From: Alphaproteobacteria bacterium
GTDB lineage: Bacteria > Pseudomonadota > Alphaproteobacteria > RF32 > CAG-239
Assembly (NCBI GenBank): GCA_017961285.1
Contig: JAGCXO010000018.1
Coordinates: 874 to 64,873 of the forward strand
Length of the DNA: 64,000 bases
Direction: 5' to 3'
The translations under genes and the position numbers were made by a program. Under the pieces are notes generated by a model. The model searched no databases and was not told the DNA's origin. It saw nothing but the letters and a program-made list of their open reading frames with translations. Positions 45,503-64,000 of the stretch are shown here, piece by piece (the stretch's first letter is position 1; every line of letters starts with the position of its first letter).

Positions 45503-45526
45503 AGCCCGATAAAATTCGGGCTTTTT
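45503..45526. terminator. Bidirectional terminator between the micro-ORF and recF
   Basis: agcccga-taaaat-tcgggct with T-runs on both strands. Abuts the recF stop. Confidence 0.7.
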
Positions 45527-46742
45527 ACTTTTCTAATAAAGAATTATTTTTTAACTCAAAAAATTGAGCCTTATTTTTCAAACTTCCAAACAATTCGGGA
45601 TTCGTAGAAGTAATCCAAGCCTGCAAACCTAAATCCGTAATTTTCGACAACAATGCCTCTCTTTTAATATCATCCAAATGCGCTGCCACTTCATCCAACA
45701 AAAGGACCGGAGAAAAATCCTGATACAAAATCTGGCACTTGGTTTGCGCCAATATAATGCTGATCAACAAAGATTTTTGCTCACCGGTCGAACACAATTC
45801 AGCCGGCATATTCTTCTTTTTATAAAACACCTTAAAATCGGCACGATTAACTCCGTCAACATTTTCATTACACAAAACTTTGTTGCGCTCAGATGCCAAC
45901 TTTTGCATATAAAAATCCTCAACATCCACCGCAGGCAGTGTTGCCAACATTTTCTCGATTGTCCCGTCAAGCTGCAACTCAACATCAGGAAAAACATCAT
46001 CCGGCTCATTTTCAATAAAAGCATTAAGCCTGGCAATTTGCTCTCTTCTGGCCGCCGCAATGGCAACCCCCATAGCCGCCATATTTTCTTCGATTCCCTC
46101 AAGCCACAACTTGTCAACTTTGCCGTTGGAGTTTCTTATCAGCTGATACCATTGTTTATACAAACCCTCAAAAACCGCCGTTCTTTTGGCATGATCATTA
46201 TCAAAAGTATAAACCAACCTATCCAAAAAACTTCTTCTTGGCTGAGAGCCACCCCTAAACAATCTATCCATCTGCGGAGTTAACCAAATTGCTGAAAAAT
46301 AATTTCCCAGCTCCGCTTGAACAGAACTTCTTTGCCCGTCAATTTTTACGATTCGCTTATTATAAATTCCTGATTCGTCATTATCCTCTTTCAAAAAATT
46401 TTCAACTGCTGTTCCGATCTCAAATTCTTCTCCATTTTTGCTTATCATTGCCGAAACAGCCCACGAAGCATTTGAAGGAATATAATCATCACCAACAATC
46501 GCCGGTGAAATTCTCCTTATATCAGAAAGCCTTGCTCCACGCAAACCTCTACCCGGAGTCAAAAAAGAAATGGCTTCCAAAATATTTGTTTTTCCGCTAC
46601 CGTTATCACCGGTAATAACGATAGGACAAAGCTCTGATGAAATTCTCAATGATGCATAATTTCTATAATCAGTTAAAGTCAGGCGCTTCACACCTGACTT
46701 TTTCTGAGTAAGAAAATCTATATCTTGAGCCAAATTATTCAA
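45525..46742 (-). CDS. recF: DNA replication and repair protein RecF
   Basis: 405 aa. Walker A GDNGSGKTNILEAI, signature CSTGEQKSL, Walker B LLLDEV. Confidence 0.9.
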   Translation of the reverse strand: MNNLAQDIDFLTQKKSGVKRLTLTDYRNYASLRISSELCPIVITGDNGSGKTNILEAISFLTPGRGLRGARLSDIRRISPAIVGDDYIPSNASWAVSAMISKNGEEFEIGTAVENFLKEDNDESGIYNKRIVKIDGQRSSVQAELGNYFSAIWLTPQMDRLFRGGSQPRRSFLDRLVYTFDNDHAKRTAVFEGLYKQWYQLIRNSNGKVDKLWLEGIEENMAAMGVAIAAARREQIARLNAFIENEPDDVFPDVELQLDGTIEKMLATLPAVDVEDFYMQKLASERNKVLCNENVDGVNRADFKVFYKKKNMPAELCSTGEQKSLLISIILAQTKCQILYQDFSPVLLLDEVAAHLDDIKREALLSKITDLGLQAWITSTNPELFGSLKNKAQFFELKNNSLLEK

Positions 46743-46743
46743 C

Positions 46744-47862
46744 TTATACTCTCATCGGCATCAGCACATAAATTGCACTTGTATCCGAAATATCATGAAT
46801 AACCGAAGGAGAAGAAACATCAGAAAAACCAAACTGTGCATTCTCACCCTTAATCTCTGTCAAAATATCCAATAAATAGCGGAAATTATAACCGATTTCC
46901 AAAGATTCGCTGTCATATTTTGCATCAACTTCTTCCAAAGCCGACCCCAAATCAGGACTTGTAGTAGTGATAATAACCTTACCTTTCTCTACAATCATCT
47001 TAACCGCTCGTGTTCTTTCTGCAACAACTGACACGCGGTCAACAGCATTTGCCAAACCTTTTACGGAAACTTCCAATAACTTATCTGTATCCGTCGGAAT
47101 AACCCTTTCATAATCCGGATAGGTTCCATCAATCAATTTTGATGTCAAAATCACTTCTTCCAAAACAAAACGAACTTTATTATCCGAAACCGAAATTTCA
47201 ATATTTTCAGCCTTAGTATCATCAAGAAGCTTTCTGACCTCAGCCACAGTTTTTCTAGGAATAATAATTCCCGAAACTTTCTCAGCACCTTCAGCCAACG
47301 GAGTCTCTACACAAGCAAGTCTGTGTCCATCCGTTGCCACAACACGCAAAACCTTGGTTGTTCCCTCATTTTTTGCATGCAAATAAATACCATTCAGATT
47401 ATACCTTGTCTCTTCGGTAGAAACAGCAAATTGTGTCCTATCAATAATATCTTTCAATTCCTCACGTGCAATATTGAAAACTATCGGCAATTTTTCACCG
47501 GAAATAACCGGAAAATCTTCAACCCCAATCGTCGATAATGCAAACTTTGAACGACCGGAAGCAATACTCAGTTGACCTTTTTCATCAGGAAAAACTATCT
47601 CAACTTCAGCACCGTCAGAAAGCTTGCGCACAATATCATACATCATATGTGCAGGAGCAGTCGTAGCACCGGTCTCCGCAATTTTTGCATCAACAATTTC
47701 CGTAATTTCGGTATCCATATCCGTAGCCTTAAAGCTGATACCGTCCCCCATAGCCTCGATTCTGACATTCGACAAAACAGGAATGGTATTGCGCTTTTCA
47801 ACAATACTCTGAATATGACTTAAAGTTTTTAACAAAACCGCACGTTCAATAACAAATTTCAT
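46744..47862 (-). CDS. dnaN: DNA polymerase III beta sliding clamp
   Basis: 372 aa starting MKFVIERAVLLK, with a three-domain clamp pattern, in dnaA-dnaN-recF order. Confidence 0.95.
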   Translation of the reverse strand: MKFVIERAVLLKTLSHIQSIVEKRNTIPVLSNVRIEAMGDGISFKATDMDTEITEIVDAKIAETGATTAPAHMMYDIVRKLSDGAEVEIVFPDEKGQLSIASGRSKFALSTIGVEDFPVISGEKLPIVFNIAREELKDIIDRTQFAVSTEETRYNLNGIYLHAKNEGTTKVLRVVATDGHRLACVETPLAEGAEKVSGIIIPRKTVAEVRKLLDDTKAENIEISVSDNKVRFVLEEVILTSKLIDGTYPDYERVIPTDTDKLLEVSVKGLANAVDRVSVVAERTRAVKMIVEKGKVIITTTSPDLGSALEEVDAKYDSESLEIGYNFRYLLDILTEIKGENAQFGFSDVSSPSVIHDISDTSAIYVLMPMRV

Positions 47863-48005
47863 AACACTATTCCAAACAAATATTAAACATAAAAAATTCT
47901 ATAGCGATAATATCATAATATGCATATTTCGAAACATTAAAAAAGAATCTTCAACAGTTTTTTAAAACATAAAAGCCGGATTTTACTCCGGCCTTCATTT
48001 CGCTT

Positions 48006-49463
48006 TTATGCCTCCAATGCTCGACGTAACTGATCAACACTTTCTGCAACATTTTGATCTTTTTTAATTAGTTCCTCAATCTTTCTGACTGCATGCATAA
48101 CTGTTGTGTGATCACGATCAAACTTACGACCTATTTCCGGCAAAGAGCGCAAGGTCAACAATTTTGCCAAATACATTGCAATTTGTCTTGGTCTGGCAAC
48201 CGTTCTAGCCCTGCGTGAAGATTGCATCTCTTTAACCGAAATATTAAAGTATTCCGCAACTTTCTTTTGAATTTCATCAATAGTCGTGCGTCTGTCATAA
48301 GAACGGAGCATATCCTTCAAAACATCTTGCGTATTTTCAATCGTAATTTCTTTGCCCGGCAAAAGCTGCGCATGAGCAACTATTCTGCGCAAAGCTCCTT
48401 CAAGTTCACGAATATTGGTGGTAATCTTTTGAGCCAAAAACTCGGCAACCTTTTGCGGCAATTCACAATTTAATTGCTTGGCTTTTGATTGCAAAATACC
48501 GATACGTAAATCAAAATCTGTCGGATGAATATCGGCAACCAAACCACATCCCAATCTTGAACGCAATCTGTTCTCAATTCCCTCCAAATCAGACGGAGAT
48601 TTATCAGCAGAAATAATTATCTGTCTTCCCTCTTCAATAAGAGAATTAAATGTATAGAAAAATTCTTCCTGAGTAGTATCTTTGCCGCCCATAAATTGAA
48701 CATCATCAACCATCAAAACATCAACCGAACGGAATTGTTCTTTGAATGCAGCTGTATCTTTATATCTTAAAGCACGAACAAATTTATACATAAACTTTTC
48801 TGCTGACAAATAAACAATATTCTTTTCCGGATTTCTCTGTTTGATATGCCAAGCAATAGCGTGCATTAAGTGAGTTTTTCCAAGTCCGACACCAGAATAT
48901 AAAAACAACGGATTAAAAGGAACATCATCGGATTCGGCCACTTTGCGTGCCGCCGCATAAGCAAACTCATTCGTCTTGCCGACTACAAAATTCTCAAAAG
49001 TATATTGCGGATTCAAAGGAACTGAAAGTGATTGATTGCTGTCCGAAACCATTGCGCTGCTGTCAACCGGCAAATTTGAAACACCGGACATATATATATT
49101 TTGCGGAGCCGGACTGTTAGAAATCTTTTTTAATAACGAACGGCAAGTAGTGCTGTGAATACCATGAATAATTTCTTCATCTGCAGCCTGAACAATAAAG
49201 TTAATACTCTTAATGCTCGGATTCTTCTTCTCCCAAATTTTATGTATTCTATCCGAATAATTTGTAATTACCCAATTGCGCATAAAACGCGTCGGCACAC
49301 ATATATTCATAACTCCACTGGAAAAAGAACTTATACTCAAAGGTTTTAACCAACTGTCAAAAGCCTTTTCGCCAACCTCTTGTCTTAACTGTGAACAAAT
49401 TTGTCCCCATTCATTTTGGACTTCATCGTAATTATTCTGTATTGCTTCACCAGCCATCGTCAT
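48006..49463 (-). CDS. dnaA: Chromosomal replication initiator DnaA
   Basis: 485 aa. Walker A GVGLGKTHLMHA, VDDVQF, and a C-terminal DNA-binding helix DHTTVMHA. Confidence 0.95.
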   Translation of the reverse strand: MTMAGEAIQNNYDEVQNEWGQICSQLRQEVGEKAFDSWLKPLSISSFSSGVMNICVPTRFMRNWVITNYSDRIHKIWEKKNPSIKSINFIVQAADEEIIHGIHSTTCRSLLKKISNSPAPQNIYMSGVSNLPVDSSAMVSDSNQSLSVPLNPQYTFENFVVGKTNEFAYAAARKVAESDDVPFNPLFLYSGVGLGKTHLMHAIAWHIKQRNPEKNIVYLSAEKFMYKFVRALRYKDTAAFKEQFRSVDVLMVDDVQFMGGKDTTQEEFFYTFNSLIEEGRQIIISADKSPSDLEGIENRLRSRLGCGLVADIHPTDFDLRIGILQSKAKQLNCELPQKVAEFLAQKITTNIRELEGALRRIVAHAQLLPGKEITIENTQDVLKDMLRSYDRRTTIDEIQKKVAEYFNISVKEMQSSRRARTVARPRQIAMYLAKLLTLRSLPEIGRKFDRDHTTVMHAVRKIEELIKKDQNVAESVDQLRRALEA

Positions 49464-55672: not shown

Positions 55673-55872
55673 GTCAGCCCTTGCTCGGCGCACCGGTGTC
55701 TTTATTAAAGTCACCCCTCGATTTTGCTTGCAAAATCATCCAGGGGTCTACCGATTAGTTTTTTCATTGTCATCCCTTGCTCGGCGCACAAGCGTCCGTG
55801 CATCAAGGGATCCAAACTTCAGTACTTTAGCACTGCTTCCTTATAAAAATTCGAAGACCCCTTGACCAAAAA
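55673..55872. repeat. Left-flank array of GTCAYCCCT...AGGGRTC clamp hairpins (one partial unit plus a two-hairpin module)
   Basis: Starts 2 nt after the secB stop. 55710-55872 matches 60623-60789 in the same orientation at roughly 9 of 10 positions by eye. Confidence 0.85.
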
Positions 55873-56025: not shown

Positions 56026-58071
56026 TTACCACGGATCCCTAAATTTCAAACGTTGGTCATTAAGGCGCGTATTATAGTCATTAGTTTTCTCATAACTATT
56101 AACTACACTAGCATCATGAGATTGCTCAAAAGTCTTCAATTGATCATATTTATCAACATAATCAGAATCATATTCTACATTCGTCCTATCAAAATAGCAA
56201 TATACCGTGGCATAACCCTCTATCTCGTTTTTATAAACAGGGAACAAATTCCAAAATACTTTGTCTTGATTTGTCGCACTATGCCCGCTTGTGCCGCCGG
56301 CACCGGAATAAGAATCTTGAGTTGCATAAGCATGAGCACTACGAGCCAAATCTCCATACTGACTGGCAGGATAGATAAATCCCATAATCAATCCCCATCC
56401 ATTAAAGTCCTTTGCATTACTGGTATGATTCATATGTCCTTCATATACAGGTCTAACCTCCGAACGCAACCATGTGCTCTTTTGATAATCAAGATATATC
56501 GGCATTGCATCAGAAGCTGTGCTGCTGTTTTGGTTATAAACCTCCATTGCATCAGGCAGACTGACCTCCGGTTTTCCGTTAGTATCAATAGTCAGCTTTC
56601 CAGCCTGTGCCATAGCCCAACCGGCAGGGGTCAAAGTAATCACTTTTGCATATCCCTGAGGGCATTTTGGTGTCGGCACAAAACCGACATAAGCCGAAAC
56701 TATATCCCTTTGATTTTGTGCATCAGGAAAATCTTTAATCGGAAAATCAGGTTGGGTCCAATTTGTAACCACTCTTTCTTCATAGCTGGTATCAACCACA
56801 TAAATACCCTTGTTGATAAAGTCCGGCAAAATATCGCTCAAACGCGCACCGCCACGAGTAGTCAGTTTGATATCATGCATAACCGAGGTATAAGCCGGAT
56901 TAACTTCATATTTAGTATACAAATCACCAGCATCAGGAACCGGCATTCCGGCACCTTTTGCTACAGCCCTAGTTGCATTAATAGCATTTTGGTCTCTTCC
57001 AGCCCCCAGAAGAGAATAATTACTGATGAATCTATCTGCCGCAATATACCCCATCATTGCTTCTGTCGCAGTAGGATATGGTCCAGAGCCTGTAGTATTA
57101 TAATCTTCCAAAATCTCCTTATTATGCAAACGATGGTCTCTATTGGTCGCCAAATTAATAGAACCTTTTCTAATATAGACAGAACCATACGTTAAGGCAT
57201 CACTATCAGCATATCTGTTATCATCCTTATTATTATCAACTGCCATAATCAATTCACCCTTGGTCAAAGAGTGCTCTAAATTACGTGTCGCCCTAATCTC
57301 AAACTTACCTTTGTCGATGAACAAAGCTGCCGGATTGGCCGAATTAGAAGCATTGTTCCTAGCCCCTGGAAATTGCATATCATGGTCATAGACCGCAATA
57401 CCTCCGGCAAATCTGGTCGTAACCTTACCATATTCACCAGCACCGGGATCACCATATTCATCCGGTTTGATATTCAATACAGAACGCGTCTTAAGATCTC
57501 CAACTGGTCCGAGAACTTGACTTCTAGCGTTAGAAGCAATAGTATTTACTCCCAAAGAATCACTATTATAAACAATCTTACCGACATCAAATTGCATTCC
57601 TTCAATCATATATTGAGCTTTATTCACCTGGTTAGGTGCTGGGCTTCCTAAAGCATAAAACCTGTCTACATCCGTTTCTACAGTAGCTCCCCCATGAGGA
57701 TTATTATAAACTTGTAACATCGTATCTTGGATAGAAACAGGCATATCATCAACAAAATTCCAAAGTTGTCCCGAATCATCAAACGTCGACAAATAAATAC
57801 CTTTTTCTGCCCCCATACGGATTTCACCATATTGCGGCTCTGAATTAGTTTTTGCGAAGTAGAATTTATCAAATATACTGGTATTTCCGGCAATCAAATC
57901 AATACCGCCACCTACATTACTGGCATTAACCGTAAATCCCGGATGTTGTGAGTCGGAAGAAGCATATACCAAAGAATCTGCTGCACTATGCCCTTGTCCA
58001 TATAAACTAAACCTTGACTCACCAGCTTGAGTTTTTTCTGTCAACATAAAGAAATCACCATCAGGAGACAA
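56026..58071 (-). CDS. 681-aa ORF of unknown function, either translationally coupled to the upstream pilin-like ORF or its out-of-frame C-terminal continuation
   Basis: Opens with TTG and overlaps the upstream stop by 11 nt. Gly/Asn/Ser/Tyr-rich with no signal peptide of its own. No motif recognised. Confidence 0.6.
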   Translation of the reverse strand: MSPDGDFFMLTEKTQAGESRFSLYGQGHSAADSLVYASSDSQHPGFTVNASNVGGGIDLIAGNTSIFDKFYFAKTNSEPQYGEIRMGAEKGIYLSTFDDSGQLWNFVDDMPVSIQDTMLQVYNNPHGGATVETDVDRFYALGSPAPNQVNKAQYMIEGMQFDVGKIVYNSDSLGVNTIASNARSQVLGPVGDLKTRSVLNIKPDEYGDPGAGEYGKVTTRFAGGIAVYDHDMQFPGARNNASNSANPAALFIDKGKFEIRATRNLEHSLTKGELIMAVDNNKDDNRYADSDALTYGSVYIRKGSINLATNRDHRLHNKEILEDYNTTGSGPYPTATEAMMGYIAADRFISNYSLLGAGRDQNAINATRAVAKGAGMPVPDAGDLYTKYEVNPAYTSVMHDIKLTTRGGARLSDILPDFINKGIYVVDTSYEERVVTNWTQPDFPIKDFPDAQNQRDIVSAYVGFVPTPKCPQGYAKVITLTPAGWAMAQAGKLTIDTNGKPEVSLPDAMEVYNQNSSTASDAMPIYLDYQKSTWLRSEVRPVYEGHMNHTSNAKDFNGWGLIMGFIYPASQYGDLARSAHAYATQDSYSGAGGTSGHSATNQDKVFWNLFPVYKNEIEGYATVYCYFDRTNVEYDSDYVDKYDQLKTFEQSHDASVVNSYEKTNDYNTRLNDQRLKFRDPW

Positions 58072-59650
58072 TACGCCAGCCCCCCTGAAGTCCTATTACT
58101 GCCCCTGCACGGAATTTACCTGCATTAGCTTCATAAGCACTAACGTTACCGCCTTGGATAGTATCATTAACATACATACTACCGCTGACAGTCACTCTAT
58201 AATCTTCACCACTATTTTCAACTATTGTAGTATTTACATTTCCATTACCCATAGTAGTTTGATATAAGCGTGCCGGCCCCCCATGTTGTTGAACGGCAGT
58301 GCCTCCTACGCCAATAGTAACATAACCTTCATTACCGGTTTTATCAACCAACAAAGTCTTGTCCATCGCTTCAAGTTTATCTTGGTCAATATATAAATTC
58401 TCTATGCCATCATTCTTCTTATATCTCAGAGCAATACCACTTGCACCACCATGAGACACCTGAAATATCATTGCCTGTGTGCTAGGATTACCATATTGCA
58501 ATTCATCCACACCGAGTTTGAAAAACGCCAGAGTATTAGAAGCATATTTCATTTCCATCTTTGGCAAATTATTCATAGTAGGATCTTTTTCAACCGAAAA
58601 CCTTCGATCTATCGCTTGCAACCTACCCTGAACATTGGCACCGCCTCCATTGGTGATATACAAAGCATTATCAAGCGCATCACCATACTGATCATTTGCA
58701 AGACCACTTTCACCGGCTGTATGGGTTTTATCTGTCTCATTACCGCTTCCAACCATTCTATTTACATCAGGCGACATCACAATTTGGTTGACCATACGAA
58801 TATTGCGGGTAGTGGTATCTCTCGTTCCCAAAAACAGGTCAGTAGTCATCGCGTTCAGTGCTTGGTCATCATCATCCGGCATATCCACTCTATAAAGCAC
58901 GTTTTCATTCGTAAGCCCTTGCGAAGAAATTGGTTGCAAAGAAGAAACCACCAACGTATTCGGCTGTAACATCGGTATATCACCCTCAACCGGTGCAATA
59001 TCAGAATGCCCGATATTCCAAATTCCTTGTGTGCCCTGAACTGTCCAACCACTTCCATTAGGATCCTTATCTGCAACAGCACCATTGCTTCCGACCATGC
59101 TGGCAATACGCATTGCACGAGTGTTGTCAACCGAACTATGTTTCGGATCAGCAAACAAAAATCCAGTCAAAGTCTCTACAATCGGCTCTTTATTGGCATC
59201 TAATTGCCGTTTCAGACGAACCATAATTTTATAGTTTTCATTTAAATGATTATGAAATTTATTAGAAAAAAGCTTGGTTTCACGCATTTCCTGATTATCA
59301 ATCATCATACCATATGGCAGATAATTTCTCAGCACATTAACATCAACCACCACCGGTTTTGGATTTTCGTCATCAGGCACATTTCCGGTCAACGTAAAAA
59401 CGCTAAAATCACCGCCAAACACATCAGGATCACCGCGCGTGATTGCGGCAAAATTATCCTTCAAATAGGCATCCATCGCCGTGGCAATTGCCCTCAATTG
59501 GCTGGAGGCATTAATATCTTGCAGCTCGGTCGTGCGCTCCGCCGCCTTTTTATACAAAACAGGGGTAACCATAGAAACCAAACCCAACATTGCCAATGCT
59601 TCCACCAGCAATGTTCCTGTTTCGTTAATTTTTTTCAATATATTAGTCAT
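58061..59650 (-). CDS. Large prepilin-type protein resembling the PilV (Shufflon_N) constant region
   Basis: The N-terminus KKINETG/TLLVEALAMLGLVSMVTPVLY has Gly then Glu at +5, followed by the helix SSQLRAIATAMDAYLKDNF. Internal blocks MRIASMVGSNGAV..GWTVQGTQGIWNI and NVLYRVDMP..ALNAMTTDLFLG..NIRMVN recall R64 PilV ([22 protein letters not shown]) from memory. Confidence 0.6.
   Translation of the reverse strand: MTNILKKINETGTLLVEALAMLGLVSMVTPVLYKKAAERTTELQDINASSQLRAIATAMDAYLKDNFAAITRGDPDVFGGDFSVFTLTGNVPDDENPKPVVVDVNVLRNYLPYGMMIDNQEMRETKLFSNKFHNHLNENYKIMVRLKRQLDANKEPIVETLTGFLFADPKHSSVDNTRAMRIASMVGSNGAVADKDPNGSGWTVQGTQGIWNIGHSDIAPVEGDIPMLQPNTLVVSSLQPISSQGLTNENVLYRVDMPDDDDQALNAMTTDLFLGTRDTTTRNIRMVNQIVMSPDVNRMVGSGNETDKTHTAGESGLANDQYGDALDNALYITNGGGANVQGRLQAIDRRFSVEKDPTMNNLPKMEMKYASNTLAFFKLGVDELQYGNPSTQAMIFQVSHGGASGIALRYKKNDGIENLYIDQDKLEAMDKTLLVDKTGNEGYVTIGVGGTAVQQHGGPARLYQTTMGNGNVNTTIVENSGEDYRVTVSGSMYVNDTIQGGNVSAYEANAGKFRAGAVIGLQGGWRIVS
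58080..58085 (-). other. G6 (plus-strand C6) homopolymer at the junction of the two ORFs
   Basis: The coding strand reads CTT CAG GGG GGC TGG CGT ATT GTC TCC TGA. Removing one G gives the continuous reading ..LQGAGVLSPDGDFFMLTEK. Confidence 0.8.
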
Positions 59651-59659
59651 TGTAGCCTC

Positions 59660-60304
59660 CTATTGAATTTTGGTGATATAAACCAAACAATAATTTCCGT
59701 TACCGCTGCACATCCCATTATCTTTACCAAAATCTCTATTATTACCGATTATATATTCCGGAAGAGAATAATATGGTCTTGTGCCTTGAGAAACCACGCC
59801 TTTGCGAGTATTAAAAGTGTTATACTCATCATTTTCACCCATATAAGGATTATCAGCCCTATCAACCGAATAGCCGAGTCCGTCAACATAACCCAGCTTG
59901 TCTCTCATAGAATCCAAAATTTCGGCTCTCGGCAAACCGGTGCGATTATCCTGCCATTTTCTGGCAATCGGGCCATAGGTGATGATATAATTAAAATCGT
60001 TACCCTTACACTCTGGAACAGAGGAATATCCGTCTTCATCGAGACAATAAAGATAAGAAGAAAAATTTCCCCGATTAAAACCAAACGGGAGATATGTTTC
60101 TTCAAGCTTGTTATAATCAACCTCGCCATCTATCATATCGTTATAAGTAAAATATTTCATAACTGCGCGGTGCAGAACATACAGCTGCGTAACCTCGGCT
60201 TCGGCCTGTCTATCAAGATACAATTCCTTAATATCAGGACGTAGCGAACTGCTCAACGCCGCCAGCGCAGAAAGGAAAATTGCTATTACAACCCATAAAT
60301 ACAT
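59660..60304 (-). CDS. 214-aa membrane-anchored protein, first gene of the pilin-like operon
   Basis: aggag SD. N-terminal hydrophobic helix MYLWVVIAIFLSALAAL, then a pilin-like helix AEAEVTQLYVLHRAVMKY, but no Gly/Glu+5 processing site. Four Cys in the globular part. Confidence 0.5.
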   Translation of the reverse strand: MYLWVVIAIFLSALAALSSSLRPDIKELYLDRQAEAEVTQLYVLHRAVMKYFTYNDMIDGEVDYNKLEETYLPFGFNRGNFSSYLYCLDEDGYSSVPECKGNDFNYIITYGPIARKWQDNRTGLPRAEILDSMRDKLGYVDGLGYSVDRADNPYMGENDEYNTFNTRKGVVSQGTRPYYSLPEYIIGNNRDFGKDNGMCSGNGNYCLVYITKIQ

Positions 60305-60427: not shown

Positions 60428-60462
60428 AACCTTTTTCGAAAATCTGTAATTTTTAAAACATT

Positions 60463-60789
60463 GTCATCCCTCCAAACCATCACAAAAAAAACCTGTCATC
60501 CCTCCAAACCGTCATAAAAAAAACCTGTCATCCCTCGATTTTGCTTGCAAAAACAGTATCAAAGTCATCCCTATTTTTTCGCCCTGCGAAAAAATTCAAG
60601 GGATCTACGAATTTATTCAACTGTCATCCCTCGATTTTGCTTGCAAAATCGTCAAGGGATCTACCGATTAGTTTTTTCATCGTCATCCCTTGCTCGGCGC
60701 CCAAGCGTCCGTGTATCAAGGGATCCAAACTTCAGTGCTTTAGCACTGCTTCCTTATATAAAAACTCAAAGCCCCCTTGCCCCAAAAAT
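60463..60789. repeat. Right-flank array of six GTCATCCCT-initiated units, including the two-hairpin module shared with the left flank
   Basis: Unit starts at 60463, 60495, 60527, 60564, 60623 and 60682. Interiors differ but are self-complementary (cgattttgc/gcaaaatcg, attttttcg/cgaaaaaat, cggcgc/gcgtccg). Confidence 0.85.
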
Positions 60790-60845: not shown

Positions 60846-61667
60846 CTAAGCCCTCATTCTATCGAGCCAAGCTTGAACCTTCTCTTCCGAGAGGTCAAAG
60901 TCTCCTTTGACTCCATTCGGAAGATAAAAGCTCTCCTCAATGTCATAGAGCCTCTTTATGTCGAGGTCTCTGATGTCATCGAGTTTTACTTGGCCCGTGA
61001 AAAGAGCCGCCTCAAGCCATCTCCGCTTGTGCACCCCAACATATTGCCCCTTTCCGAGCACCTTTACGCACTCTTCAGGGGTTTTTCCGGAATTGATAGC
61101 TTTTGCAAATGCGGATTTTGCAAATCCACCGTTTCCGGTGGAGTAAGCTATCATGCAACATGCAATGTACTGTTCCGGCGTGCGGAGTTTTATAGTATCC
61201 AAAAGCCGGTAAACTCCTTTTAAGTATTCACGCATTTCGGCTTTCGCCTCATCGCGTGAAATCCTTGTGCCGGGGGTTACTTTGTGCCCGCGGACACGGC
61301 TTTGACCGTATCCGACGAGCCAATTTCCGCATTTATAGGCTTCGCCCTTAAAGGACTCAACGCTACAAATGCAGTCAACGATATCATCTTCATCTGCAAA
61401 GCAGATGGAAACGATATCAGATTTTACCACTTTCGTGGTAACTGTCGTGGTAGCGGTCGTTGCCGGTGCCGTCGCTGTTGCAGAAGCTTCGGCCTTAGCA
61501 GGCGAAACTACCACCGTTGCCGTCGCAGAAGCTGCGGTCGGTGTTGTAACCACTGCGGTCAGCTCCGTCGCTGTTTCCCCGTTTTTTTCTTGCGCAGGAG
61601 AGGATAAAATCCCACGGCAACAGTATATCACTGTGATAACTGCTGCAATGAAAAAAAGCTTTTTCAT
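60846..61667 (-). CDS. Secreted GH24 (phage-type) lysozyme-like protein with a Thr/Ala-rich linker
   Basis: N-terminal signal or anchor. Low-complexity region TAVVTTPTAASATATVV..ATTATTTVTT. Lysozyme core VESFKGEAYKCGNWLVGYGQS..G..ISRDEAKAEMREYL. Confidence 0.7.
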   Translation of the reverse strand: MKKLFFIAAVITVIYCCRGILSSPAQEKNGETATELTAVVTTPTAASATATVVVSPAKAEASATATAPATTATTTVTTKVVKSDIVSICFADEDDIVDCICSVESFKGEAYKCGNWLVGYGQSRVRGHKVTPGTRISRDEAKAEMREYLKGVYRLLDTIKLRTPEQYIACCMIAYSTGNGGFAKSAFAKAINSGKTPEECVKVLGKGQYVGVHKRRWLEAALFTGQVKLDDIRDLDIKRLYDIEESFYLPNGVKGDFDLSEEKVQAWLDRMRA

Positions 61668-62940: not shown

Positions 62941-64000
62941 CTATTTCTCTTCTTTCAGCATTTTTGCAACAGTAATATAGTCAAATTTTCCACTACCCAA
63001 AACCGGAATATCCTTAATAAACACAATCTTCTTCGGCATCCACAATTCGCTCAACCCCTTTTGTTTGCAGTGTTTCTTAATATCCTCAAGCTTAGCATCG
63101 GGATTATTACATACCAGCACCAATTGCTCGCCTTTTTTCTCATCAAACAACGCCAAAACTCCAAGCAAAGTTTGCGGATAAATTTCCGCCACCGTTTGCT
63201 CAACCGCCGTCAGCGAAACCATTTCTCCGCCGACTTTTGCAAACCTCTTGGCTCTGCCCTGAATAGTAACAAATCCCTCACTATCAACTGTTACAATATC
63301 GCCTGTATCATACCAACCGTCAGACAAAGGCTGTAAAACTCCGGCTTTCTCTGCTGTCATATAACCCTGCATAATATTATCTCCCTTCACCGACAATCGT
63401 CCGCCTTCATCGATTCCCTCAACCGGCACAAGCTTATATTTTATGTCCGGCAAAAGCCTGCCGACAGTTCCTTCTTTATAATGCATCGGTGTATTAATAC
63501 TCAAAACCGGAGCAGTTTCTGTTGCTCCATATCCTTCCAAAATTCTTACCCCGAATTTTTTCATCCAAAGATCTGCCGTCGACAACTTAAGTTTTTCGCC
63601 GCCGATAACCGCATATTTAAGCGCAAAAAAGTCATATGGATTCGCCATCTTTCCATATCCGGCAAAAAACGTATCTGTGCCAAAAATCACCGTCGCCGCC
63701 GTATCATAACAAAGCTCCGGCACAATTCGATAATGTAAAGGCGAAGGATATAAAAACACCTTAACTCCGAACAACAAGGGCAACAAAGTTCCAACACTCA
63801 AACCGAAAGAGTGAAACATCGGCAAGGCATTAAAAACAACATCACTCGCCCCAAAAGGTATTACACTTGCAATTTGGTATCGATTCGCCTGCAAATTGCG
63901 ATGCGACAACAACACCGCTTTCGGTGTTCCTTCCGAACCGGAGGTAAAAAGCACGACTGCAGTTTTATCAGCTTTTTTCTGCGGCATTTTTTTGAGATAA
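62941..64000 (-). CDS. Second Aas-like acyl-ACP synthetase / AMP-binding protein (5' end beyond the window)
   Basis: VLFTSGSEGTPKAV, YGATE, TGD..GRAKRF. The frame stays open to the window edge. Clear paralog of the ORF at 45-2231. Confidence 0.8.
   Translation of the reverse strand, partial: YLKKMPQKKADKTAVVLFTSGSEGTPKAVLLSHRNLQANRYQIASVIPFGASDVVFNALPMFHSFGLSVGTLLPLLFGVKVFLYPSPLHYRIVPELCYDTAATVIFGTDTFFAGYGKMANPYDFFALKYAVIGGEKLKLSTADLWMKKFGVRILEGYGATETAPVLSINTPMHYKEGTVGRLLPDIKYKLVPVEGIDEGGRLSVKGDNIMQGYMTAEKAGVLQPLSDGWYDTGDIVTVDSEGFVTIQGRAKRFAKVGGEMVSLTAVEQTVAEIYPQTLLGVLALFDEKKGEQLVLVCNNPDAKLEDIKKHCKQKGLSELWMPKKIVFIKDIPVLGSGKFDYITVAKMLKEEK

What the first reader, a model, noticed from the sequence alone, without database searches (positions are those of the whole stretch)
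58055..58095. G6 tract exactly at the junction of the 529-aa and 681-aa ORFs: a one-base slip would fuse them into a protein of about 1,200 aa
On the coding (minus) strand the upstream ORF ends ..CTT CAG GGG GGC TGG CGT ATT GTC TCC TGA. The downstream ORF is in the +1 register. It is open only from a TAG eight codons before its TTG start, and it overlaps the upstream stop by 11 nt. Shortening the G6 run (plus-strand C6 at 58080-58085) to G5 gives ..GAVIGLQGAGVLSPDGDFFMLTEK.. with no stop, and the composition on the two sides is similar.

Homopolymer tracts at such positions are the classic slipped-strand phase-variation switch for surface adhesins. The alternatives are a programmed +1 frameshift, a sequencing or assembly indel, or a real two-gene arrangement in which GGGGGG serves as the SD 8 nt upstream of the TTG.
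Basis: seen in the sequence. Interest (0 to 1): 0.7.

Follow-up and report, generated by a model that had tools for sequence, protein, structure and literature searches.

The report
One extra G splits a giant pilin gene
The two ORFs are the halves of one conserved gene of about 1,207 aa for a giant pilin-like surface protein, and in this assembly alone an extra G (G6 instead of G5) breaks the frame, so this is an ordinary frameshift lesion or consensus error, not a built-in switch or a real two-gene junction.

Summary
A minus-strand G6 run (plus C6, 58080-58085) lies where a 529-aa and a 681-aa ORF overlap by 11 nt, and deleting one G gives a 1,207-aa ORF.

The fused protein exists at 100% identity in three other public assemblies. 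In all, five assemblies of the same species (at least 99.8% DNA identity) carry G5; only this window carries G6. More than 85 homologous proteins, and every one of about 70 fully covered species-level loci, are single ORFs of about 900-1,300 aa, apart from one broken by a run of N. A conserved motif (LRAG..F..A..D.DF) runs straight across the junction. Sister species have CTT GCC GGA GCC GGT at this position, so the run is not conserved.

That rules out a real two-gene arrangement and a programmed frameshift. A dedicated phase-variation switch is unlikely, because G5/G6 is below the usual cut-off of seven or more G/C and such runs are no commoner in this gene family than in its flanks.

Whether G6 is a real loss-of-function allele or a NovaSeq/MEGAHIT error cannot be decided without reads. 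Two other near-identical assemblies carry different lesions in the same gene: a stop codon and a 14-nt deletion.

The protein looks like a giant type IV pilin, possibly a tip minor pilin like CofB/TcpB, always paired with a conserved upstream gene of about 214 aa.

The parts
58080..58085 (-). G6 run on the coding strand (Q522-G523-A524 region). It is G5 in every other assembly of this species, and the extra G causes the frame break.
56026..59650 (-). The whole gene: a single conserved ORF of 1,207 aa once one G is removed. It encodes a giant type-IV-pilin-like protein.
   Evidence: fusion; P0001 is 100% identical at 1,207 aa, and more than 85 full-length homologues
58061..59650 (-). N-terminal fragment ORF of 529 aa: 523 native residues plus the out-of-frame tail GWRIVS.
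56026..58071 (-). C-terminal fragment ORF of 681 aa. Its TTG 'start' is the internal Leu527 codon of the intact gene. It holds the most conserved domain of the family and has no signal peptide of its own.
59552..59650 (-). Coding region for the prepilin-like N-terminus: MTNILKKINETG|TLLVEALAMLGLVSMVTPVLY (Gly at -1, Glu at +5, hydrophobic helix).
   Evidence: G12 and E17 are invariant; the AF2 model of P0003 shows helix 2-65 followed by a beta-sheet
59660..60304 (-). Conserved partner gene of 214 aa with an N-terminal membrane helix, 10 nt upstream. It is found directly upstream of the big gene in 85 related loci.
58098..58127 (-). Stretch where assembly L004 carries four clustered substitutions, including GTA>TGA (a stop), just 5' of the G run.
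58378..58391 (-). Site of a 14-nt frameshifting deletion in assembly L089. Contig L090 ends at the same spot.
58277..58282 (-). A second G6 run in the same gene, in frame and identical in all assemblies.

Best explanation
The 529-aa and 681-aa ORFs are not two genes. They are the two halves of one conserved gene of 1,207 aa.

What the gene encodes:
- a prepilin-type N-terminus (G|TLLVE followed by a hydrophobic helix);
- a beta-rich middle region;
- a highly conserved C-terminal domain that weakly resembles the tip minor pilins CofB/TcpB.

It always sits just downstream of a conserved gene of about 214 aa, in uncultured gut and rumen Alphaproteobacteria.

In this species the codons CAG GGG GCT normally contain a G5 run. 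This assembly has one more G, which shifts the frame after Gly523 and stops translation six codons later. The product would be a truncated pilin-like protein without its most conserved C-terminal part. Any 681-aa fragment re-initiated at the internal TTG would have no signal peptide and could not be exported.

The extra G is a one-off +1 indel at a short, unremarkable homopolymer. It is either a real loss-of-function allele that dominated that sample, or an uncorrected consensus error in an unpolished NovaSeq/MEGAHIT genome bin. I rate these two about equally likely. It is not a designed junction, a recoding site or a dedicated phase-variation tract.

Shown: single-gene ancestry, G5 as the common state, and no conservation of the run. 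Inferred: the functional consequence, the pilin role, and the real-versus-artefact split.
For: -: the fused protein matches P0001 at 100% over 1,207 aa. More than 85 homologues cover 100% of it, each as a single protein of about 1,150-1,300 aa.
- the 90% cluster holds three intact 1,207-aa members, plus the split products of this window (NCBI J6Y53_02330 and J6Y53_02325).
- L001, L002, L003, L004 and L089 (99.3-99.97% identical to the window) all have G5. The gap at the run is the only indel between the window and L001-L004 in the gene.
- the conserved motif LRAG..F..A..D.DF[FY] runs across the junction in all 30 aligned homologues.
- of 80 species-level loci, those fully covered are single ORFs. 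The one break (L079) is a 28-N scaffold gap.
- sister species (57% identity) read CTT GCC GGA GCC GGT here, with no homopolymer.
- G/C runs of 6 or more occur at 0.047 per kb in 77 orthologues and 0.053 per kb in their flanks.
- the usual cut-off for poly-G/C phase variation is seven or more.
- the junction equivalent lies inside the beta-rich middle region (pLDDT about 59-65), not in a disordered linker.
- the C-terminal third is the most conserved part, so truncation removes it.
- the source data set is probably NovaSeq 150-bp reads assembled with MEGAHIT or IDBA-UD without polishing.
Against: - The run length does differ between near-identical populations (G6 once, G5 five times), which is the minimal signature of a slippage-prone site.
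- Two other near-clonal assemblies carry different inactivating lesions in the same gene (a stop in L004, a 14-nt deletion in L089). No lesion is seen in about 10 kb of flanking genes. Together these hint at recurrent selection for loss of this surface protein, that is, population-level ON/OFF behaviour.
- Some orthologues carry in-frame G7 or G8 runs.
- No reads were available, so I cannot tell whether G5 and G6 coexist within one sample.
Confidence: 0.85

Rival explanations
1. Slipped-strand (simple-sequence-repeat) phase variation. The G run switches reversibly between G5 (ON) and G6 (OFF) at high frequency, turning a surface pilus protein on and off, as the poly-G tract does in Neisseria pilC.
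For: - Both lengths are seen among populations that are at least 99.8% identical.
- The protein is probably surface-exposed and pilin-like.
- The same gene carries other inactivating lesions in other samples.
- A few orthologues have in-frame G7 or G8 runs.
Against: - The ON length is only G5 and the OFF length G6, below the cut-off of seven or more used for poly-G/C tracts. Most poly-G/C tracts catalogued in Campylobacter are 9-10 long.
- The run is absent at this position in sister species.
- G/C runs of 5 or 6 or more are no commoner in this gene family than in its flanks.
- A second G6 in the same gene is invariant in all assemblies.
- The other two lesions are not homopolymer slips, so they argue for plain irreversible mutation (or error), not a switch.
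Confidence: 0.09
2. Programmed +1 ribosomal frameshift, or transcriptional slippage, on the G run. This would yield the full-length protein from the G6 template as a regulated recoding event.
For: A +1 slip of the glycine tRNA from GGG onto the overlapping GGG would regenerate exactly the wild-type sequence ..LQGAGV.. (inference). Low-level leakiness of the G6 allele is therefore plausible.
Against: - The same species has in-frame G5 alleles in five assemblies, and all fully covered homologues are in frame. The frameshift is therefore not conserved, which is the defining property of programmed recoding.
- There is no stop or rare codon in the A site (the next 0-frame codon is GGC).
- There is no local structure (z = 0.08).
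- G6 is far shorter than known transcriptional slippage tracts (own knowledge).
Confidence: 0.01
3. A real two-gene arrangement, with GGGGGG acting as the Shine-Dalgarno sequence for a TTG-initiated 681-aa protein that is translationally coupled to the 529-aa protein.
For: The G run lies 8 nt upstream of the TTG and the ORFs overlap by 11 nt, a geometry that resembles coupled genes.
Against: - No relative has this split. The TTG is the internal Leu527 codon of a continuous, conserved segment.
- The downstream ORF has no signal peptide although it belongs to an exported, pilin-like protein.
- The split is seen in one assembly only.
Confidence: 0.01

Closest known systems
Neisseria pilC (PilC1/PilC2) poly-G phase variation
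   Same: A large (about 110 kDa) pilus-associated protein whose reading frame depends on the length of a G run inside the coding region (own knowledge).
   Different: The pilC tracts are long (roughly 10 or more G), lie in the signal-peptide region, vary within clonal cultures and are conserved as tracts. Here the run is G5 or G6, lies in mid-gene, is absent from sister species, and its variation is seen only once, between assemblies.
Type IVb tip (initiator) minor pilins CofB (ETEC CFA/III) and TcpB (Vibrio cholerae TCP)
   Same: A prepilin-like N-terminus with Gly at -1 and Glu at +5, a long N-terminal helix followed by a beta-sheet head, then extra beta-rich domains. The six best Foldseek PDB hits for the C-terminal 348 aa are all CofB or TcpB.
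   Different: - The structural hits are weak (E 0.08-0.5, TM 0.27 or less).
- The protein is two to three times longer than CofB or TcpB.
- It has no sequence match to any PDB chain or Pfam family.
- It sits among housekeeping genes, not in a pilus operon.
PilV of plasmid R64 (Pfam Shufflon_N, PF04917)
   Same: Some family members hit the Shufflon_N constant region. PilV is a minor pilin whose C-terminus is varied to change adhesion specificity.
   Different: The window protein itself scores below threshold. PilV varies by site-specific DNA inversion (the shufflon), not by homopolymer slippage, and no inversion repeats or recombinase are seen here.
Frameshifted genes in unpolished metagenome-assembled genomes, and strain-specific pseudogenes
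   Same: A single-base indel at a short homopolymer splits a conserved gene into two called ORFs in one assembly, while other assemblies of the same species are intact. The data set is probably short-read NovaSeq with MEGAHIT.
   Different: Nothing essential. This is the category that fits.

Membership tests
SSR-mediated phase-variable (contingency) locus | Homopolymer in the hypermutable length range (seven or more G/C by the PhasomeIt cut-off) | tested here: not met
   G6 here and G5 in the five other assemblies. The cut-off is quoted from PMC6321876.
SSR-mediated phase-variable (contingency) locus | Tract length varies among closely related isolates or within a population | tested here: inconclusive
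   G6 once against G5 five times, among assemblies at least 99.3% identical. No read-level data, so within-sample heterogeneity is unknown.
SSR-mediated phase-variable (contingency) locus | The tract is maintained at the site in orthologues, or such tracts are enriched in the gene | tested here: not met
   Sister species read GCC GGA GCC at the site. Runs of 6 or more occur at 0.047 per kb in the gene and 0.053 per kb in the flanks.
SSR-mediated phase-variable (contingency) locus | Reversible, high-frequency ON/OFF switching | not testable with these tools
   Needs reads or a culture.
Programmed ribosomal frameshift (prfB-type +1) | The frameshift requirement is conserved across orthologues | tested here: not met
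   The conspecific G5 alleles and the fully covered homologues are in frame.
Programmed ribosomal frameshift (prfB-type +1) | Stimulatory context (a stop or hungry codon in the A site, or nearby structure) | tested here: not met
   The next 0-frame codon is GGC. No local fold beyond that of shuffled sequence (folded with DNA energy parameters only).
Type IV pilin-like protein (class III signal peptide) | Short leader ending in Gly, Glu at +5, and a hydrophobic N-terminal helix of about 20 residues | tested here: met
   MTNILKKINETG|TLLVEALAMLGLVSMVTPV. G12 and E17 are invariant in 30 homologues.
Type IV pilin-like protein (class III signal peptide) | Long N-terminal alpha-helix packed on an antiparallel beta-sheet head | tested here: met
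   AF2 model of homologue P0003: helix 2-65 and strands 92-224, with pLDDT about 75-87 from residue 41 on (about 47-58 over residues 1-40). The model is of a 55%-identical homologue, not of the window protein.
Type IV pilin-like protein (class III signal peptide) | Match to a curated pilin family model | tested here: inconclusive
   The window protein has no Pfam or NCBIfam hit. Two of 30 aligned homologues hit Shufflon_N at 1e-6, and several shorter relatives carry PF04917 in precomputed annotation.
Type IV pilin-like protein (class III signal peptide) | Prepilin peptidase and pilus assembly machinery present in the genome | not tested
   The roughly 30 ORFs scanned, about half of those in the window, are housekeeping or unrelated genes. 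The rest of the window and the rest of the genome were not examined.
CofB/TcpB-type tip minor pilin | C-terminal beta-sandwich tip domain homologous to CofB/TcpB | tested here: inconclusive
   The top six Foldseek PDB hits are CofB or TcpB, but with E 0.08-0.5 and TM 0.27 or less. The model has pLDDT 67 and pTM 0.64.

The most novel reading that the evidence does not exclude
The giant pilin-like gene is repeatedly switched off in natural gut populations of this uncultured alphaproteobacterium, by whatever lesion arises: a G5 to G6 slip, a nonsense change, or a microhomology deletion. The driver would be strong fluctuating selection, for example from phage or host immunity, against a surface tip protein. 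On this reading the G run acts as a weak, semi-reversible contingency site in a protein family that has never been studied.
Probability: 0.15. Interest if true: 0.5.

Novelty: already known. Interest (0 to 1): 0.22.

Why it matters
For annotation, the two 'hypothetical proteins' of this genome bin (J6Y53_02330 and J6Y53_02325) should be read as one disrupted gene, not as two proteins or a recoding site.

The more useful by-product is the gene itself. It defines a widespread, unannotated two-gene module: a membrane protein of about 214 aa followed by a pilin-like protein of about 900-1,300 aa. The large protein has a strongly conserved C-terminal domain. The module occurs in uncultured gut and rumen Alphaproteobacteria and has no Pfam family or solved structure.

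If the three different lesions seen in near-clonal populations are real, the gene is a candidate target of in-host selection. Existing reads could test that directly.

Tried and rejected
- Two-gene arrangement and programmed frameshift: rejected on the G5 alleles and the single-ORF homologues.
- Local secondary structure at the junction, as a frameshift stimulator or a cause of sequencing errors: none (z = 0.08).
- Ectopic template for the clustered L004 substitutions (template switching or gene conversion): no match of 12 nt or more in the window.
- Enrichment of G/C runs in the gene family: none for runs of 5 or 6 and above. For runs of 7 and above the counts are 5 against 5, too few to interpret.
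- More assemblies of the species from JGI metagenomes: two exact-pattern scans found nothing.
- Sample metadata for SAMN15830180, SAMN15830190 and SAMN15830195 in the supplements of Xie et al.: not found.
- Sequence matches to PDB, NCBIfam and Pfam for the window protein: none.
- Foldseek with the full-length model (pTM 0.34): meaningless hits. Only the C-terminal sub-model gave a coherent, though weak, lead.
- An apparent second split orthologue (L079): it turned out to be a 28-N scaffold gap.
Full report
**1. Observation.**
The sequence is as described. On the minus strand the upstream ORF (58061-59650, 529 aa) ends ..CTT CAG GGG GGC TGG CGT ATT GTC TCC TGA. The G6 run is plus-strand C6 at 58080-58085. 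The downstream ORF (56026-58071, 681 aa, TTG start) is in the +1 register. It opens after a TAG eight codons before the TTG and overlaps the upstream stop by 11 nt. Removing one G gives a 1,207-aa ORF reading ..GAVIGLQGAGVLSPDGDFFMLTEK... The window holds only four G/C runs of length 6. Two of them are in this gene, and the second (58277-58282) is in frame.

**2. One gene, not two.**
- A search with the fused protein returned P0001, 100% identical over all 1,207 residues. It also returned more than 85 homologues that cover the whole query as single proteins of about 1,150-1,300 aa, all from uncultured Alphaproteobacteria of animal and human guts.
- The 90% identity cluster holds three intact 1,207-aa members from three ENA assemblies. 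It also holds the split products, which are NCBI MBP5399238.1 and MBP5399237.1 (J6Y53_02330 and J6Y53_02325), that is, this window.
- In an alignment of 30 homologues the motif LRAG..F..A..D.DF[FY] runs straight across the junction, with R514, A515, G516 and D530 invariant or nearly so.
- I fetched 80 species-representative loci. All that cover the gene fully have one uninterrupted ORF from the pilin-like N-terminus to the C-terminal domain. The only break (L079, CAG:495) is a 28-N scaffold gap.

**3. G5 is the normal state, and the run is not conserved.**
- DNA of five other assemblies of the same species (99.3-99.97% identical to the window over 2-14 kb) reads CTT CAG GGG GCT GGC, that is, G5. 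These are L001, L002, L003, L004 and L089. The missing G is the only indel between the window and L001-L004 in the gene.
- Sister species at 57% protein identity (L085, L087, L088) read CTT GCC GGA GCC GGT, and a 46% relative (L005) reads ACA TTT GAT GCC. Neither has a homopolymer here.
- Across 77 orthologues (255 kb), G/C runs of 5 or more and of 6 or more are as frequent as in the flanking DNA: 0.43 against 0.42 per kb, and 0.047 against 0.053 per kb.
- Five orthologues have in-frame G7 or G8 runs at Gly-Gly dipeptides, in four unrelated places. That count is too small to interpret.

**4. What this excludes.**
- A real two-gene arrangement is excluded. No relative is split, the TTG is the internal Leu527 codon, and the downstream half has no signal peptide of its own.
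- A programmed +1 frameshift is excluded, because the need to shift frame is not conserved even within the species. In addition, the A-site codon is an ordinary GGC and there is no local structure.
- A dedicated slipped-strand switch is unlikely.
  - The tract is G5 or G6, whereas tracts of seven or more G/C are the working definition and most catalogued Campylobacter tracts are 9-10 long (PMC6321876).
  - The tract is also not maintained in relatives.
  - The neighbouring G6 in the same gene never varies.

**5. Real allele or artefact?**
This cannot be settled without reads. Judging from the locus-tag series and the ENA records labelled XIEF21-1, the data probably come from the ruminant gut study of Xie et al. 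2021. That study used NovaSeq 150-bp reads assembled with MEGAHIT or IDBA-UD and did no polishing (PMC8199421).

For an artefact:
- Five of six assemblies have G5.
- Assembly L004 carries four substitutions packed into 30 nt immediately 5' of the run (T>G, A>C, GT>TG, the last creating a TGA stop). It shows only two other differences in 14 kb. As a result, five of the nine variable alignment columns in this 3.6-kb gene fall within 43 nt. That looks like a local error hot spot.

For a real allele:
- The contig is long (about 68 kb), so coverage was probably adequate. Short-read indel errors at G5 are rare (own knowledge).
- L089 carries a 14-nt deletion in the same gene, flanked by a short repeat (window 58378-58391). 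An independent contig, L090, ends at exactly that base, as expected at a polymorphic bubble.

In total, three different inactivating lesions occur in six informative near-clonal assemblies. The flanking genes keep the same called lengths in the two assemblies that span them (L001, L004). I put real allele and artefact at about 50:50.

**6. What the gene is.**
- N-terminus. It reads MTNILKKINETG|TLLVEALAMLGLVSMVTPV.., with Gly at -1, Glu at +5 and a hydrophobic helix, the signature of proteins processed by a prepilin peptidase. G12 and E17 are invariant in the family.
- Full-length model. I modelled the 55%-identical homologue P0003 with AlphaFold2.
  - Helix 2-65 is followed by a beta-sheet head at residues 92-224, with pLDDT about 75-87 from residue 41 on.
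  - A low-confidence stretch follows, then a beta-rich middle region (pLDDT 55-77) that contains the junction equivalent at about residue 500.
  - The C-terminal domain is better predicted.
- Family matches. Some relatives hit Pfam Shufflon_N (the PilV family) and bactofilin-like beta-helix models. The window protein itself hits nothing in Pfam, NCBIfam or PDB sequences.
- C-terminal domain. The last 348 aa are the most conserved part of the family. A separate model (pLDDT 67, pTM 0.64) gave CofB and TcpB, the tip minor pilins of type IVb pili, as its six best Foldseek hits. The scores are weak (E 0.08-0.5, TM 0.27 or less), so this is a lead, not a membership.
- Partner gene. A gene of about 214 aa with an N-terminal membrane helix lies directly upstream in 85 loci, although the surrounding genes differ between species.
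- Context. About half of the window's ORFs were scanned. Those scanned are housekeeping or unrelated genes: dnaA-dnaN-recF, secY, adk, ileS, secB, a Tim44-like protein, mltA and others. None encodes pilus machinery.

**7. Consequence of the G6 allele (inferred).**
Translation would give 523 native residues plus GWRIVS. The product would be a truncated pilin-like protein without the conserved C-terminal domain. Occasional +1 slippage of the glycine tRNA on the G run would restore the exact wild-type sequence, so the allele may be slightly leaky. Nothing suggests that this is programmed.

**8. Verdict.**
The feature is an ordinary +1 indel, either a mutation or a consensus error, in a conserved single gene. 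It is not a switch, a recoding site or a gene junction, so interest in the finding itself is low. Two residual points could be followed up with existing reads: the uncharacterised giant pilin-like family, and the concentration of different lesions in this gene among near-clonal populations.

Noticed in passing
window 55673-55849 and 60455-60762: REP-like palindromic units ending in AGGGATGAC (minus strand; plus-strand GTCATCCCT seven times, against 0.26 expected) fill the intergenic regions on both sides of the 214-aa + 1,207-aa gene pair and occur nowhere else in the window. A 140-nt direct repeat at 94% identity (55710-55849 and 60623-60762) brackets the pair.
   Followed up: partly
window 60525-60648: The copy number of a 96-nt unit within that repeat array differs between assemblies. 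L004, and apparently L001 (whose contig ends inside the array), have one more copy than the window.
   Followed up: partly
window 58378-58391 (L089 3995-3997; end of L090): Assembly L089 (SAMN15830190) has a 14-nt deletion flanked by a short repeat, which frameshifts the same gene after residue 419. An independent contig (L090) ends at exactly that base, which suggests a polymorphic site.
   Followed up: partly
window 58098-58127 (L004 5940-5980): Assembly L004 (SAMN15830195) has four substitutions within 30 nt just 5' of the G run, one of which creates a TGA stop. No ectopic template or hairpin explains them. It is either an error hot spot or a multi-nucleotide mutation.
   Followed up: partly
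window 63409-63514: Assembly L002 differs from the window by eight SNPs within about 105 nt, and the distances between them are all multiples of 3. This lies in the AMP-binding/acyltransferase gene and looks like a short recombination tract from a diverged allele.
   Followed up: no
L008 6423, L025 6474, L022 7613, L071 8533, L076 6904: Five orthologues in other species carry in-frame G7 or G8 runs at Gly-Gly dipeptides. L008 and L025 have them at what appears to be the same position, just before the conserved SQTLTGF motif. L022 has one in the LRGGV motif just upstream of the position equivalent to this junction. These would be better candidates for real slippage-prone tracts than the run in this window.
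   Followed up: partly
window 59660-60304 and L005-L088 (directly upstream of the match in each): A membrane-anchored protein of about 214-237 aa with no family assignment is conserved immediately upstream of the giant pilin-like gene in 85 loci, although the genomic neighbourhood differs between species. It forms a mobile or independently placed two-gene module.
   Followed up: partly
window 45525-49463: The dnaA-dnaN-recF cluster is here, and plus-strand GC skew is strongly negative over the profiled part of the window (50-64 kb). The window therefore probably lies next to the chromosomal replication origin.
   Followed up: no
window 60846-61667: A lysozyme-family protein (Pfam Phage_lysozyme, with a weak match to the gene-transfer-agent endolysin BgtA) lies upstream of the module in this species but not in sister species.
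   Followed up: no
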